NCBI RefSeq assembly: GCF_050920415.1
Contig: NZ_CP169310.1
DNA: 64,000 nucleotides
DNA from: Escherichia coli
GTDB taxonomy: Bacteria > Pseudomonadota > Gammaproteobacteria > Enterobacterales > Enterobacteriaceae
Direction: 5' to 3' (one strand)
Of this stretch, positions 36,001 to 54,000 are shown one piece after another; positions within the stretch are counted from its first letter, which is position 1; each line of letters opens with the position of its first letter. The position numbers were made by a program.

Positions 36001-39000
36001 TGTAGTTTTTGGTGAACACAAGGTGCCCTACCACGCTGAATCCGGCGCGTTTCCAGGCCGCCATAAAGCGGTCAATACGGTTCCAGCCGTAGAAGCTGAC
36101 CATCAGCGCGTCTTTTTTGAGCACGCGGTACATTTCATTGCAGGCTGGTTGAAGCCACTCGTCAGTTCTGTCACCGGCAAGAGTACGGCCGGAACGGTCG
36201 CAGAAACCGACCAGATAAGGTGGGTCGGTGATGATGAAATCGACAACATTGTCCGGAAACGTGGCCATAACTCGCACGCAGTCACCCAGAATAAAACGGG
36301 ACATAACAGCACTCTCCTTCTCTTACAGAGGGCACCAGGAGGGCCCCCCTGTGGTGCCCGTTCCCCGCTGCCTGTGGGCTGTTCACCGCGTCCGGTAACG
36401 GGTCAGGCCGACCGTGGAATATCGCAGCCGTCGTCTTTTTGACGGCGAGAATATGCCGCGAAAGCGGCTTGAAGGGCGTTCATCAGAAAAGGGCGACAGG
36501 CTGGCGTACACTGTCACCGACGCCAGCCGGGAGCGGTAAAAGCGCCCGTCCCGTGCCCGCCGGACGCGGGACACTGACCACAGGCAGCGTTCCTGCCGCG
36601 CCGCGTCAGCCGGCGCAGTAAAAAGAGGAGCCCGGCGACATCTTTTGTTACTTGCCAAGAAAACCCCAAAATAACCCACAACAACCCCAACAAAACACCA
36701 AAAACAAGACAAACAATCATTGATTGATGGTTTAAATGGGGTAAACTTGACAAATAAACCCACTTAAAACCCAAAACACCCCCAAATAAACACCAAAAAA
36801 ACACCATAAGGAGTTTTATAAATGTTGGTATTCATTGATGACGGTTCAACAAACATCAAACTACAGTGGCAGGAAAGCGACGGAACAATTAAACAGCACA
36901 TTAGCCCGAACAGCTTCAAACGCGAGTGGGCAGTCTCTTTTGGTGATAAAAAGGTCTTTAACTACACACTGAACGGCGAACAGTATTCATTTGATCCAAT
37001 CAGCCCGGATGCTGTAGTCACAACCAATATCGCATGGCAATACAGCGACGTTAATGTCGTTGCGGTGCATCACGCCTTACTGACCAGTGGTCTGCCGGTA
37101 AGCGAAGTGGATATTGTTTGCACACTTCCTCTGACAGAATATTACGACAGGAATAACCAACCCAATACGGAAAATATTGAGCGTAAGAAAGCAAACTTCC
37201 GGAAAAAAATTACATTAAATGGTGGGGATACATTCACAATAAAAGATGTAAAAGTCATGCCTGAATCTATACCAGCAGGTTATGAAGTTCTACAAGAACT
37301 GGATGAGTTAGATTCTTTATTAATTATAGACCTCGGGGGCACCACATTAGATATTTCTCAGGTAATGGGGAAATTATCAGGGATCAGTAAAATATACGGA
37401 GACTCATCTCTTGGTGTATCTCTGGTCACATCGGCAGTAAAAGATGCCCTTTCTCTTGCGAGAACAAAAGGAAGTAGCTATCTTGCTGACGATATAATTA
37501 TTCACAGAAAAGACAACAACTATCTGAAGCAACGAATTAATGATGAGAACAAAATATCAATAGTCACCGAAGCAATGAATGAAGCACTTCGTAAACTTGA
37601 GCAACGTGTATTAAATACGCTCAATGAATTTTCTGGTTATACGCATGTTATGGTTATAGGCGGTGGCGCAGAATTAATATGCGATGCAGTAAAAAAACAC
37701 ACACAGATTCGTGATGAACGTTTTTTCAAAACCAATAACTCTCAATATGATTTAGTTAACGGTATGTATCTCATAGGTAATTAATGATGGACAAGCGCAG
37801 AACCATTGCATTCAAACTAAATCCAGATGTAAATCAAACAGATAAAATTGTTTGTGATACACTGGACAGTATCCCCCAAGGAGAACGTAGCCGACTTAAC
37901 CGGGCCGCACTGACTGCAGGTCTGGCCTTATACAGGCAAGACCCCAGGACCCCATTCCTTTTATGTGAACTACTGACGAAAGAAACCACATTTTCGGATA
38001 TCGTGAATATATTGAGATCGCTATTTCCAAAAGAGATGGCCAATTTAAATTTTTCAACAATCATTCAGTCCTCTTCACAACCGGAGCAAAAAAGTGATGA
38101 GGAGACAAAAAAGAATGCGATGAAGTTAATAAACTAATTAAATTATGATTGCGTTTCCTTTATCCACTATCAGGCTGGATAAAGGGAACTTAATCAAGTT
38201 ATTTTCTTGCCAGTCATTACATAAAATAAACAGGGTCGTTATTATGAAATTATTCCACGGAACTTATGAAAAAGTGGCTCCAATAATCAAAATTGGTGAG
38301 TTCGCAATGTCTGGCAATAACGTTTTTGATGGGTTATTTGCCAGCCCGGAGCGCGATATTGCTGCCAGTCACGGAAACACCGTATTCATATACCATGTTG
38401 ATGATGATAAAATAGCCAAATCCCGTGATCTTGATGCTCATTTTCAAGAGGTTTATGCCTTCTTACATAACGAACTGGATACTGCTGACGTAGAGGAAAT
38501 AGCAGATCACGTCATGTGGGATAACAATTCAGATATCGAGGATTTTGCAGATATTCTCTCGCCACGCCTCGGCAGCGATATTAGGGGAGCATACTCATGG
38601 TAATTGCAACGCCTGCGTGGTCGTGTAGCCACTTACCTTGGATTTGATGCCATAGAAATGAACGATGAACACGGCACAAGTTACCTCATTGTGAATCCAC
38701 AATAAAGGTGAATAAAATGAATTCCCGCATTAAAGGGACCAGATATTCTCCAGTTCCTCCTGTCCTGCAAGGCTATACGGTCTGTACAGCAATGAAAATG
38801 AGCTGTACGCGGTTGAAGGATTTACCCGCAGTCGGGCCGTGAGGGCCGCTTACGAACATGTATGACAGAGTTACATTTATACAATGTCCTGCAGGGCATA
38901 GAAGGGGCGAAAGAAAATACCTGGGCGAAGCCGCTGAACATCATTCTGGCGATTCCAATAAAGGTACTTGCTCGCGCTCTGTCATTTTCTGAAACTCTTC

Positions 39001-51000: not shown

Positions 51001-54000
51001 AAAGGAATGAAATGGTGAAACTGAGAGGAAAGGAAAGCGGTGACGAATCATGTCACCATATACAGAAAGATGTCTAATGGGGACTCTTCAGGTACCTGAA
51101 GAATCCCCATAACGCATTTAAAAGACACCCATCAGATATCCTCAAGGTATCCTATGAATTATTGACCTATTGCACCGTCACGTTCAAGCTTCTCTCTTAT
51201 AGCCTCAATAATATATGAGCTAAAATCCAGAGATGTTTTACTGGTCGCTTTAAGTTCCGCATGTGCTTCAAAATACGACAGCGGTATGGCCTTAAGATTC
51301 TTAGCCTTCGTCCTGGCAGCTACGGGACGACCTGAAACTTCCTCTGCACCTTCATTTGGCTGAGACGGGACTGTTGCTGTTACGGCAGAAGAAGAAGTTT
51401 GTAATCTGGCAGAATCCACCAGGTTTTTCAGTTTTTCAGCCTGTGCACTAAATTTCGCTTTGCTCATGAGATAACCCAGGATGTTTGTTAGATACTCAAA
51501 AGATATCTATTAAAACCCTAAAGGATACTATATGGATACCCAATGGATATACCTTACTGTTTATTATTTTCAATCAGATGATTGATTTCTTCGATCAGGG
51601 CAATAACTTCCTTACCTCCTGCCGAATAGCGCCCATGAACAGACTCAGTGATTCCCATCCCAGTCTCAATGACATCCTCAAATTCTGCACGAGCAGAAAT
51701 GCGGCTCTTCATCAGCTTCAGATGTTTGAACGATGGCAGGATTGCATCAAGCTTAGGGAATTTCTTCTTGTTAGGATTAACTTTACAGAGATACAGGTGA
51801 GCAATTATATCGGTCCCCATGATAGAGCTGATTTCGTCCAGTACTCCATCAAAATGCATCAAACCAATACGCTCAGTCAGGGAATCTTTTGAAGGGACAA
51901 TAACGCAGTCTGCAAAGGCAATCGCAGTACGGGTAAGATCTGAGTCAAATCCCCCACAGTCAATAAGTAACGTCTTATCGCTGTTCTTGTAGGGAGTCAT
52001 AATTTCGATTAACTCATCCACTGTTTTGGGTACTTTCACGGAAATTTCTTTTCCTTCAGGTCTCAGCCCCAGAATGATAGAAAGCCCAGTATGAGTATCC
52101 AGATCAACTGTATCAGACTTCATTTCACCAACAATGTTTACGGATGAAGTTGTCTTACCCACACCACCTTTGGGATGCGTATTAGCAATAACAGGCATAG
52201 TGTATCTCCAGAATCCAAATGTAATACCCATAAAGAACCCCAAAGACATCTTTCGGATATCCAAGAGGTACTCAACAGATGTTTTTTTACTCTATACCAG
52301 TCCGGCATGTCAACAGAATATGAAATACCGATAATATATCCATGAGATATCCGAAAGGGATTTAAAAAAGTCAGAGCTTAAGGAATTCTTTTGAGCATAG
52401 ACACTGCATCGGACTCAGGCATCGCAAACTGCACCCGGTGCCGTGCAGCCACATCCAGTGCAAACACCTTCGTGTAGACCTCTGTTGAGCTGATGGACTT
52501 ATGCCCCATCAGGCTCTGCAGGACCTTCAGTGGAATACCGGCATACAGCATATGCATCGCATAGGAGTGGCGGAATGTATGTGGTGTGACAAGAACAGAG
52601 AACGTCACACCGTCAGCAGCAGCGGCGGCAACCGCTTCCCCAATCCAGGTCCTGACTGTTCTGTCCGTCACTTCCCAGATCCTCACTTTCTCTGTTCTGC
52701 CGGTGCGACAGTTACGCCGCTCCCTGGGGATTTTCAGTGTTGCCACCATCGTCTGCAGCTGGCTGAGGTACCAGGCATCAGAGATGCGGAACCAGCCGGT
52801 GAGTCTGCTTACCGGCCGGCGATCTTCCTGCCGTTCTGGCTGTCTTTTCGGTCCGTTGTTTCAGGGTCGCAAGCTGCACAAACGGATACGGAGGCGCGAG
52901 CGAAAAATCCCCCCGTGTCAGCGCCAGTGCTTCATTAATGCGCGCACCGGTGTTCCACAGTGTGGCCAGCAGCATCTTGCGGCGCAGATCCGGGACGTAA
53001 TGGAGCAGGGCACTCACTTCCGGAGCCAGCAGATATTTCGGCAGTTCATCATGGACCATCGACATCTGGCGAAGTGCCAGAGCTGCCGGATAATCAATGA
53101 CAGCAGGAAGTTGTGGAGACTGTCCGGCAGAATACACTGCCGGTACCATGGCTGCAGACTGGCTGTGTATAACGGAGCCTGACATTTATATTCCCCAGAA
53201 CATCAGGTTAATGGCGTTTTTGATGTCATTTTCGCGGTGGCTGAGATTGTCAGCGCCAGTGATATAAGACGGTAATTCGCCATTTGGATTGTCCGCTCCA
53301 CCCAACATGTTGTTTCCTTAAGGTTCTCACACCAGAAAGGACATCAACATGCTGAGCAGAGAGGACTTTTACATGATAAAGCAAATGCGCCAGCAGGGCG
53401 CGTACATTGTCGATATTGCGACTCAGATTGGTTGCTCTGAACGGACGGTCAGACGCTACTTCAAATACCCTGAACCGCCAGCCAGAAAAACCCGCCACAA
53501 AATGGTTAAGCTGAAACCGTTTATGGATTACATCGACATGCGCCTGGCAGAGAATGTCTGGAATAGCGAGGTTATCTTCGCGGAGATTAAGGCAATGGGT
53601 TATACGGGCGGACGTTCCATGCTGCGTTACTACATCCAGCCCAAACGTAAAATGCGTCCGTCAAAAAGAACAGTTCGCTTCGAAACTCAGCCAGGATACC
53701 AGCTCCAGCACGACTGGGGCGAAGTTGAGGTGGAGGTTGCCGGCAACGGTGCAAAGTTAACTTTGCGGTTAATACGCTGGGGTTCTCCCGCCGCTTCCAT
53801 GTCTTCGCCGCACCAAAACAGGATGCTGAGCATACCTACGAATCACTGGTTCGCGCCTTCCGCTACTTCGGTGGTTGATCCTACCCTCGTAATATGGACA
53901 CTGCTCTAAGCGAGGTTCTGGTTTTCAAATTGTTCCGGACTGAGGCCGCCACACCAACTGTGCCGTCGCCAGCGATTGTAATCACATTCGATACAATTAA

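What the first reader, a model, noticed from the sequence alone, without database searches (positions are those of the whole stretch)
36640..52198. Three partition modules on one replicon (R1-type parMRC, a divergent parMR pair, and a ParA/ParG-like pair)
An R1-identical parM/parR with its CA-rich centromere lies at 36640-38137. A second, clearly divergent ParM/ParR pair is at 49357-50746 with its own upstream iterons. A Walker-type ParA with a small RHH partner is at 51159-52198, next to a frameshifted recombinase. Redundant partition systems on one plasmid usually indicate a cointegrate or mosaic origin, and can cause incompatibility interactions.
Basis: seen in the sequence. Interest (0 to 1): 0.4.

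Follow-up and report, generated by a model that had tools for sequence, protein, structure and literature searches.

The report
Three plasmid partition modules, two origins
This stretch of a large hybrid E. coli virulence plasmid carries three intact plasmid-segregation gene sets, one native to its F-type backbone and two imported together as one block from IncI1 (R64-like) plasmids, which is an ordinary result of plasmid mosaicism rather than a new kind of system.

Summary
Module 1 (36650-38137, +) is R1-type parMRC. Its ParM is 100% identical to crystallised R1 ParM, its ParR is 110/117 identical to the common IncFII allele, and parC has two arrays of 11-bp iterons. It sits in its native F-backbone position.

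Modules 2 and 3 (49357-52377, -) are not independent acquisitions. Together they form one block, parA-parB-parM-parR, that is 98.2% identical to the IncI1 prototype R64 and present whole in more than 1000 PLSDB plasmids. Here the block is an IS-bounded fragment with a truncated impB, a frameshifted integrase and an ISEc62 insertion.

The ParA/small-protein pair is a type Ib-like module. It has three ~11-bp-phased repeat arrays: upstream of parA, between the genes, and downstream. Diverged homologues keep the same layout. The second ParM/ParR pair has five clustered copies of a TTGYATNTR motif around a promoter-like site, not a tandem array.

The window is 99.9-100% identical to the p7v-like STEC/ETEC hybrid plasmid pCFSAN004181P, so a mosaic origin is supported. 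A whole-plasmid cointegrate was not shown. Plasmids with several partition systems are already documented (745 PLSDB plasmids encode three). Function was not tested here. Interest is low.

The parts
36650..36810 (+). R1-type parC: two arrays of about five 11-bp CA-rich iterons flanking a core of about 40 bp
   Evidence: the repeat finder family with 11-nt spacing. TRF period-11 arrays at 36655-36704 and 36766-36806. 96% identical to an IncFII parC. A promoter in the core is inferred from my own knowledge of R1; the consensus scan did not call one.
36822..37784 (+). parM (module 1), actin-like ATPase
   Evidence: 320/320 identical to R1 ParM, PDB 1MWK, E=2.7e-213.
37784..38137 (+). parR (module 1), centromere-binding adaptor
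   Evidence: 110/117 identical to the common IncFII ParR. Residues 1-86 and the C-terminal tail are identical. Matches pB171 ParR, PDB 2JD3, E=1.3e-8.
46280..47175 (+). 3' remnant of impB (Y-family polymerase); left end of the I-complex fragment
   Evidence: 95.8% identical to R64 48278-49192. In R64, impB is convergent with parR.
47176..49300 (-). ISEc62 (IS21 family, istA/istB) insertion with a 4-bp target duplication; absent from pCFSAN004181P
   Evidence: The alignment breaks at 47175/49301 and 4 bp of the reference overlap. 99.9% identical to annotated ISEc62 copies.
49357..49773 (-). parR2 (module 2)
   Evidence: Pfam Plasmid_stab_B PF10784, E=1.1e-27. 136/138 identical to R64. 39% identical to ParR1 over the N-terminal 80 aa.
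49766..50746 (-). parM2 (module 2), actin-like ATPase
   Evidence: E=2e-103 to R1 ParM, with DDGSTN, DLGGTT and GGGAE motifs aligned. 322/326 identical to R64 ParM.
50794..50971 (-). Candidate parC of module 2: dispersed copies of TTGYATNTR(TG) around a promoter-like site (50844-50815)
   Evidence: All 3 window matches to TTGYATNTRTG lie here, as do 5 of 11 matches to TTGYATNTR. Direct repeats are modestly enriched over shuffles, p about 0.04. Promoter-like site matches 10 of 12 positions. T-rich iterons occur in related IncL/M and pAVS0578-C loci.
51038..51058 (-). Terminator-like hairpin separating the parA-parB unit from the parM2 promoter
   Evidence: Consensus scan, 7-bp stem followed by a T-rich tail. 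Conserved in R64 and pSCU-318-1.
51060..51158 (-). Array C: repeats downstream of the small gene (core RDTRTC / GGRTRTC)
   Evidence: Motif hits with 11-nt spacing and an inverted pair. Analogous downstream arrays occur in Klebsiella, Yersinia and Enterobacter homologues.
51159..51467 (-). Small partner of ParA (102 aa); type Ib ParB-like, mis-annotated 'GroEL' in RefSeq
   Evidence: Always follows parA. It has a conserved N-terminal helix, a variable linker and a conserved C-terminal domain. The AF2 model has a C-terminal helix pair. No family hit.
51468..51553 (-). Array B: repeats between parA and the small gene
   Evidence: Five RDTRTC cores spaced 11, 22, 11 and 21 nt; joint-highest density in the window. 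Repeats are visible in the three-plasmid alignment, where substitutions concentrate. Comparable arrays occur in the Klebsiella and Enterobacter homologues.
51554..52198 (-). parA (214 aa), deviant Walker-A ATPase
   Evidence: KGGVGKT at residues 10-16 (read from the translation). NCBIfam ParA_partition NF041546, E=6e-14, but 52 bits against a cut-off of 180. Pfam MipZ, AAA_31 and CbiA. 213/214 identical to R64.
52199..52377 (-). Array A: repeats around a TTGACA promoter-like hexamer upstream of parA
   Evidence: Perfect 12-nt inverted repeat GATATCCGAAAG and GGATAT copies. Highest GGRTRT density of any 180-nt stretch in the window, 5 hits against about 0.44 expected. The TTGACA hexamer was read from the sequence.
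52378..53185 (-). Tyrosine recombinase pseudogene; right end of the I-complex fragment (homology to R64 ends at 53113)
   Evidence: Net +1 frameshift at nt 335-374 of the R64 integrase, and the first 45 nt are replaced. XerC/XerD-like NCBIfam hits to both halves.

Best explanation
The window is part of a p7v/pCFSAN004181P-like hybrid STEC/ETEC virulence plasmid of about 220 kb. It carries two kinds of segregation machinery from two plasmid lineages.

(a) The F-type backbone contributes its own R1-type parMRC. By analogy with R1, ParR coats the ten 11-bp iterons of parC, ParM filaments are captured at ParR/parC, and sister plasmids are pushed apart. ParR also represses the promoter inside parC.

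(b) A fragment of I-complex backbone of about 4.7 kb, with IS-family elements on both sides, contributes the R64 'tandem double par locus'. The first unit is a type Ib-like module: array A, parA, array B, small centromere-binding protein, array C, terminator. Here the small protein is inferred to bind the ~11-bp-phased RDTRTC arrays and to stimulate the nucleoid-bound Walker ATPase, which would equi-position plasmids. The second unit is a divergent ParMRC whose ParR is inferred to bind TTGYATNTR repeats overlapping its own promoter.

The two ParMRC sets are probably orthogonal, so the modules should coexist and act redundantly or additively. What is shown is gene identity, integrity, gene order, repeat architecture and origin. 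DNA binding, stabilising activity, orthogonality and any incompatibility effect are inferred.
For: Module 1: ParM is 100% identical to R1 ParM. ParR is 94% identical to the IncFII allele, with identical DNA-binding and ParM-binding ends. The parC arrays are present. The module sits in its native F context.

Modules 2 and 3: the block is 98.2% identical to R64 in the same gene order and with the same flanks. All four proteins differ from R64 by at most 4 residues. The block is whole in 1075 PLSDB records.

Type Ib reading: the parA/small-gene pair occurs alone in Klebsiella, Yersinia and Enterobacter plasmids. Each has its own variant of the repeat arrays upstream, between and downstream of the genes. 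The window arrays are phased at 11 nt and are density outliers.

Separate transcription units: a terminator-like hairpin is followed by a promoter-like site.

Module 2 centromere: clustered motif copies.

Orthogonality: ParR1 and ParR2 are 39% identical, ParM1 and ParM2 about 51%, and the iterons are unlike.

Precedent: type Ib loci with arrays on both sides are functional in pESBL (PMC7602700). Double loci combining type Ib and type II are reported to be functional in pB171 (Ebersbach and Gerdes 2001, abstract recalled from memory; the paper could not be read). Multi-system plasmids are common (PMC13245405).
Against: No functional data exist for this plasmid, and I found no dedicated experimental dissection of the R64-type block in the searchable literature.

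The small protein has no detectable similarity to any characterised ParB or RHH protein.

The ParM2 upstream repeats are dispersed with spacings of about 30-53 nt, are not found by TRF, and the motif was defined post hoc from these same copies.

The I-complex fragment is otherwise decaying: impB is truncated and the integrase is frameshifted. The par genes could therefore be recent passengers rather than maintained functions. The few differences from R64 (20 nt across four genes) give no usable selection signal.
Confidence: 0.8

Rival explanations
1. Only one system matters. That would be the backbone R1-type parMRC, or the ParA pair next to RepFIB elsewhere on the plasmid. The R64-derived block is then a passively carried, IS-captured remnant that contributes nothing to stability.
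For: The fragment lies among IS elements and its neighbours are degraded. In SCP1 only one of two intact systems is needed for stability (PMC13245405). Deleting par from pESBL left the plasmid stable (PMC7602700). The reference plasmid has a further ParA pair beside RepFIB.
Against: All four genes, the three arrays, the terminator and the promoter-like site are intact. The block is 100% identical in pCFSAN004181P and 98% identical to R64, while the flanking genes have decayed.
Confidence: 0.3
2. The second ParM-like gene is not a partition ATPase but an actin homologue with another role and no centromere.
For: There is no tandem iteron array. Repeat enrichment over shuffles is only modest.
Against: A ParR-family gene (PF10784, E=1e-27) overlaps its stop codon. 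The nucleotide-binding motifs align with R1 ParM. The C-terminal tail of ParR2 resembles those of related ParRs. Motif copies cluster around the promoter-like site. Relatives in IncL/M and IncF plasmids are stand-alone parMR pairs with upstream T-rich iterons.
Confidence: 0.05
3. The two ParMRC sets, or the ParB-like protein and the ParR proteins, cross-react. The combination would then be mutually interfering or cross-regulated rather than independent, as reported for pB171 par1/par2.
For: pB171 shows regulatory cross-talk through a shared central region (Ringgaard et al. 2007, title cited in PMC7602700 and PMC11950199; content recalled from memory). Here array C lies about 70-100 bp upstream of the ParR2 motif cluster in one 409-bp intergenic region. 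The complement of the R1 parC iterons (TTTGGGGTT, TTTGGTGTT) superficially resembles some array units (TTTGGGGTTC, GATGGGTGTC).
Against: A terminator-like hairpin separates the two units. ParR1 and ParR2 share only 39% identity in the DNA-binding region. The block coexists with R1-type parMRC in several sequenced plasmids at 100% identity.
Confidence: 0.15

Closest known systems
R1 / IncFII parMRC (type II partition)
   Same: Module 1 has a ParM protein identical to R1 ParM. ParR has the same N-terminal DNA-binding region and the same C-terminal tail. parC has two arrays of 11-bp iterons, and the locus occupies the same backbone position after the leading-region methylase.
   Different: There are seven substitutions in the ParR linker and about a dozen substitutions or indels inside parC iterons. 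The locus is about 96% identical at DNA level to typical IncFII loci.
R64 (IncI1 prototype) int-parA-parB-parM-parR-impB block, common in I-complex plasmids
   Same: Modules 2 and 3 are 98.2% identical at nucleotide level, with the same order and orientation, the same flanking integrase and the same convergent impB.
   Different: Here the block is detached from the I-complex backbone and embedded in an F-type plasmid. impB is truncated, the integrase is frameshifted, and ISEc62 is inserted 56 nt downstream of parR2.
pB171 double par locus (par1 type II + par2 type Ib)
   Same: A type Ib module and a type II module lie adjacent, with ParB-type repeat arrays on both sides of the parA operon. A central non-coding region carries both kinds of site. 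A pB171-type locus occupies the same int-to-impCAB slot in pE21845IncF.
   Different: In pB171 the operons are divergent and share parC1 (PMC11950199). Here they are tandem and separated by a terminator-like hairpin. The proteins belong to different lineages: ParA is 20% identical, the small proteins show no detectable similarity, ParM is 37% identical, and ParR matches at E=2e-6.
pESBL / pMS7163B type Ib parABS (I-complex)
   Same: A small Walker ParA, a partner of about 100 aa with no recognisable DNA-binding motif, and repeat arrays upstream and downstream. It was shown experimentally to stabilise a mini-F plasmid and to bind its repeats (PMC7602700). It occupies the same slot next to impB.
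   Different: It is unrelated in sequence: ParA is 22% identical and the partner is undetectable by hhalign. Its repeat (GATAACAA octamer) is different, and there is no adjacent parMR.
pSM19035 delta/omega (type Ib with several operator/centromere arrays)
   Same: Repeat arrays precede both the ATPase gene and the gene for the small centromere-binding protein, plus a further array. This comparison rests on my own knowledge and on the statement in PMC7602700 that pSM19035 has dual arrays.
   Different: It comes from Gram-positive hosts, uses heptad repeats, and no sequence similarity was tested here.

Membership tests
Type II ParMRC (module 1, R1-type) | Actin-fold ParM ATPase | tested here: met
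   320/320 identical to PDB 1MWK.
Type II ParMRC (module 1, R1-type) | ParR adaptor gene immediately downstream of parM | tested here: met
   94% identical to IncFII ParR. Matches the pB171 ParR structure 2JD3 at E=1.3e-8.
Type II ParMRC (module 1, R1-type) | parC upstream of parM: two sets of 11-bp iterons flanking the promoter | tested here: met
   Period-11 arrays at 36655-36704 and 36766-36806. 96% identical to an IncFII parC. The promoter itself was not called by the scan.
Type II ParMRC (module 2) | ParM homologue with conserved nucleotide-binding motifs | tested here: met
   E=2e-103 to R1 ParM, with motifs aligned.
Type II ParMRC (module 2) | ParR-family partner | tested here: met
   PF10784, E=1.1e-27. 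8-nt overlap with parM2.
Type II ParMRC (module 2) | Iterated ParR-binding centromere upstream of parM | tested here: inconclusive
   Five clustered TTGYATNTR copies around a promoter-like site. There is no tandem array, enrichment is modest, and the motif was defined post hoc.
Type Ib ParA / small-ParB partition (module 3) | Small deviant Walker-A ATPase (KGGxGK[ST]) without an N-terminal DNA-binding domain | tested here: met
   214 aa, with KGGVGKT at residues 10-16. ParA_partition NF041546 at E=6e-14 but below the curated cut-off, 52 against 180 bits. Pfam MipZ, AAA_31 and CbiA.
Type Ib ParA / small-ParB partition (module 3) | Small ribbon-helix-helix centromere-binding protein | tested here: inconclusive
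   The AF2 model gives an N-terminal helix, a disordered linker and two C-terminal helices preceded by a conserved extended segment LKAIPLSY. That is compatible with RHH. There is no Pfam, NCBIfam, PDB or Foldseek match.
Type Ib ParA / small-ParB partition (module 3) | Arrays of short repeats flanking the operon that serve as centromere and operator | tested here: met
   Three arrays phased at about 11 nt. Equivalent arrays with lineage-specific sequences occur in diverged homologues. Binding was not tested.
pB171 double par locus | Oppositely oriented par1 and par2 sharing a central parC1 | tested here: not met
   All four genes here are on one strand, with a terminator-like hairpin between the units. 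The pB171-type locus in pE21845IncF is divergent.
pB171 double par locus | Orthologous ParA/ParB/ParM/ParR proteins | tested here: not met
   ParA 20% identical, ParB no similarity, ParM 37% identical, ParR E=2e-6.
R64 / I-complex par block | Same gene order, flanks and near-identical sequence | tested here: met
   98.2% identical over 3.1 kb. Integrase upstream, impB convergent downstream.
All three modules | Stabilisation of an unstable replicon; centromere-dependent incompatibility | not testable with these tools
   This requires plasmid-loss and incompatibility assays.

The most novel reading that the evidence does not exclude
The R64-type block is an integrated tandem double par locus that has not been dissected experimentally. 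It would have three arrays for the small protein and a composite central region, with array C next to the ParR2 sites, allowing cross-regulation between the type Ib and type II units. It would be an independent evolutionary solution to the pB171 arrangement, built from unrelated protein lineages. The slot between the integrase and impCAB would be a hotspot where at least four different par cassettes replace one another: R64-type, pND11_107-type, pB171-type and pESBL-type.
Probability: 0.3. Interest if true: 0.4.

Novelty: new member of a known kind. Interest (0 to 1): 0.2.

Why it matters
It matters little beyond bookkeeping. The plasmid family is already described as a STEC/ETEC hybrid, and plasmids with several partition systems are well documented.

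Two practical points follow. First, a virulence plasmid that carries both R1-type and R64-type centromeres could exert partition-mediated incompatibility against common IncFII and IncI1 resistance plasmids. This is inferred, not shown.

Second, the R64-type ParA/small-protein module is among the most widespread partition modules in Enterobacteriaceae plasmids. Its partner is mis-annotated as 'GroEL', and its centromere arrays are not described in the literature I could search. Correct annotation and a direct test would therefore be useful.

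Tried and rejected
- The small ParB-like protein gave nothing significant in any comparison: NCBIfam, Pfam, PDB sequence search with a single sequence and with a profile, Foldseek against PDB with the AF2 model, and hhalign against the pESBL, pND11_107 and pB171-type small proteins. The RHH assignment therefore stays an inference.
- TRF found no tandem arrays for modules 2 or 3. The arrays were found only by motif counting and by comparison with homologues.
- The consensus scan did not call the R1 parC promoter or a parA promoter.
- Records for pB171 (NC_002142, AB024946) and R1 (KY749247) are not in the collections. 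The first 50 kb of pMAR2 showed no par genes. A pB171-type locus was finally reached through the 2JD3 sequence.
- The Ebersbach and Gerdes 2001, Ringgaard 2007 and Sengupta and Austin 2011 papers are not held. The supplements of PMC13245405 do not list these accessions.
- A search for the R64 gene names yefA, yegA and yfaA found no paper.
- No E. coli RefSeq genome contains the same ISEc62 junction, so the exact source record was not identified.
- Synonymous versus non-synonymous counts against R64 are too few to infer selection.
- I rejected the idea that the R64-type locus is a copy of the pB171 locus.
- I rejected the idea that module 3 is the experimentally studied pESBL parAB.

Full report
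**What is in the sequence**

- parM/parR at 36822-38137 on the + strand.
- A second parM/parR at 50746-49357 on the - strand.
- A Walker-type parA at 52198-51554 and a 102-aa gene at 51467-51159, also on the - strand.

Two half-ORFs of a tyrosine recombinase follow at 52378-53185.

**Module 1**

ParM is 320/320 identical to crystallised R1 ParM (1MWK). ParR is 110/117 identical to the ParR of an ordinary IncFIA/IncFII plasmid that carries the same ParM accession. All seven differences fall in residues 87-100, between the N-terminal DNA-binding part and the C-terminal tail.

The CA-rich region upstream has two period-11 arrays, 36655-36704 and 36766-36806, flanking a core of about 40 bp. It aligns at 96% with the IncFII parC, and the substitutions lie mostly inside iterons. 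At DNA level the module is about 96% identical to more than 1600 IncF-type loci. So 'R1-identical' is true for ParM and approximately true for the rest.

The module follows the leading-region DNA methylase, as in IncFII plasmids. It lies downstream of an F-type tra region, oriT and the leading region. This is its native backbone position.

**Modules 2 and 3 are one inherited block**

The stretch 49300-52350 occurs as a unit at about 98% identity in 1075 PLSDB records, mostly conjugative plasmids of 85-110 kb. The IncI1 prototype R64 has the same order: integrase, parA (214 aa), small gene (102 aa), parM (326 aa), parR (138 aa), then a convergent impB.

The window is 98.2% identical to R64 over 3.1 kb. 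The four proteins differ from R64 by 1, 1, 4 and 2 residues. An IncK2/Z plasmid has the same arrangement.

In the window, homology to R64 covers 46280-47175 (the 3' part of impB) and 49301-53113. An ISEc62 element of 2125 bp, flanked by a 4-bp duplication, interrupts it 56 nt beyond parR2. The integrase carries a net +1 frameshift and has lost its first 45 nt.

**Host plasmid**

The window is 99.9-100% identical to pCFSAN004181P. That plasmid is 224 kb, typed IncFIA/IncFIB by PLSDB, and carries an annotated IncFII-family repA and MOBF plus MOBP relaxases. The only difference is the extra ISEc62.

pCFSAN004181P carries sta1, K88-like fimbriae, a T6SS, S6-family peptidases and ehx. This fits the published p7v-like STEC/ETEC hybrid plasmids of Escherichia cryptic clade I (PMC10100065).

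Mosaic origin is therefore supported. What the window shows is a captured fragment lying among IS-family elements, not a demonstrated cointegrate.

**Module 3 as a type Ib-like system**

ParA has the deviant Walker A sequence KGGVGKT and weak matches to ParA, MipZ and CbiA families. The best PDB sequence match is a Soj protein, limited to the Walker A region.

The small partner has no family or structure match. Its alignment shows a conserved N-terminal helix, a variable linker and a strongly conserved C-terminal segment, KNLKAIPLSYFEAHA...LDFSSYIIEAIREKLERDG. AlphaFold2 models the C-terminal segment as two helices after an extended stretch. This is compatible with a ribbon-helix-helix domain but does not prove one.

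The non-coding DNA is more informative. Repeats with a core RDTRTC (GGATATC, GGGTATC, AGTATC, GATGTC and similar) occur in three places: upstream of parA, in the 86-nt gap between the two genes, and downstream of the small gene. Their spacings are 11 or about 22 nt.

- The upstream region has the highest GGRTRT density in the 64-kb window.
- The intergenic array has the joint-highest RDTRTC density.
- The only other equally dense spot lies inside ehxD and is probably chance.

The same gene pair occurs without parMR in Klebsiella, Yersinia and Enterobacter plasmids. Each has its own variant of such arrays in the same three positions. This co-variation of protein and repeats is the best available evidence that the arrays are the binding sites.

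**Module 2**

ParM2 keeps the nucleotide-binding motifs of R1 ParM. ParR2 is a PF10784 protein whose start overlaps the parM2 stop.

A terminator-like hairpin at 51058-51038 follows array C. A promoter-like site (TTTTCA-18-TATAAT) lies at 50844-50815.

Around that site, five of the window's eleven TTGYATNTR matches fall within 166 bp. All three matches to the longer TTGYATNTRTG also lie here. Direct repeats are modestly enriched over shuffles. Related parMR loci in IncL/M and IncF plasmids have T-rich 10-11-bp iterons flanking their promoters.

TRF finds no tandem array, and the motif was defined from these same copies. I therefore rate the centromere as likely but not established.

**Relation to known double loci**

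The pB171-type locus, reached through the 2JD3 ParR sequence, is divergent: ParB and ParA on one strand, ParM and ParR on the other. It sits in the same int-to-impCAB slot in pE21845IncF. Its proteins are only distantly related or unrelated to those here.

pND11_107 has a third, non-homologous tandem parA-parB-parM-parR set in the same slot, with clear GCAAGAT-type and TGAGTA-type repeats. pESBL and pMS7163B have a single, unrelated parAB there. The slot therefore holds interchangeable par cassettes.

**Literature context**

A 2026 PLSDB survey (PMC13245405) counted:
- 4144 plasmids with multiple partition systems, of which 745 encode three.
- 971 plasmids combining RHH-type I with type II.
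- 59 plasmids with two type II systems.

pB171 par1/par2 are described as divergently transcribed (PMC11950199). The pESBL type Ib locus was validated experimentally (PMC7602700).

I found no dedicated functional study of the R64-type block. One preprint links large deletions that include 'parM/parB' to instability of an IncI1 plasmid (10.64898/2026.02.20.706986).

**Verdict**

Mechanisms are inferred by homology and repeat architecture. Nothing here departs from known kinds of partition system.

Noticed in passing
window 38145-38603 (+): The ORF immediately downstream of parR1 ('hypothetical protein' in RefSeq) matches NCBIfam NF052490, the AcrIF11-family anti-CRISPR ADP-ribosyltransferase. 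It scores 52.3 bits against a cut-off of 50. This is a possible anti-defence gene next to the leading region.
   Followed up: no
window 25751-27715 (-): A 654-aa ParB/RepB/Spo0J-family gene lies in the leading region between psiB and ssb. It is a fourth 'partition'-annotated gene but not part of a par module. Its I-complex counterpart parB_2 was not needed for stability in TraDIS (PMC10286972).
   Followed up: partly
outside the window: pCFSAN004181P 61291-62285 (L019 11291-12285): The reference plasmid has a further type Ib-like pair beside RepFIB. Its ParA is 209/211 identical to that of pND11_107, and no parMR follows it. The whole plasmid therefore carries four par modules: two Walker-type and two actin-type.
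   Followed up: partly
L002/L004 (pESBL-EA11), L005 (pMS7163B), L007 (R64): By RefSeq accessions, pESBL-EA11 and pMS7163B share the same ParA (WP_000587689.1) and partner (WP_001245884.1). R64 carries WP_001144036.1 and WP_000030199.1. This seems at odds with the statement in PMC10286972 that parAB of R64 is the one found in pESBL. If so, the R64-type pair has not been the subject of the pESBL experiments.
   Followed up: partly
window 51159-51467 (-) and homologues: The small ParA partner is widely annotated 'molecular chaperone GroEL' or 'chaperonin' in public records. This is an annotation error that has propagated.
   Followed up: yes
L006 31896-32133 (pND11_107): A single intergenic region shows two distinct repeat families back to back: GCAAGAT-type palindromes also found upstream of parA, then TGAGTAsTTA-type repeats before parM. 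It is a clearer example of the composite central region proposed for the R64-type block.
   Followed up: partly
window 39328-39887 (-) and 45288-45854 (-): A RelE/ParE toxin with a CopG-type antitoxin, and a YopT-type cysteine protease gene, lie between the par modules.
   Followed up: no
window 36660-36810 versus 51100-52250: On the complementary strand the R1 parC iterons read TTTGGGGTT or TTTGGTGTT, which superficially resemble some units of the module 3 arrays such as TTTGGGGTTC and GATGGGTGTC. This may be chance similarity between G/T-rich sites.
   Followed up: no
window 55590-55700: This is the only other 100-nt stretch with RDTRTC density as high as array B. It lies inside the ehxD coding sequence and is probably chance.
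   Followed up: no
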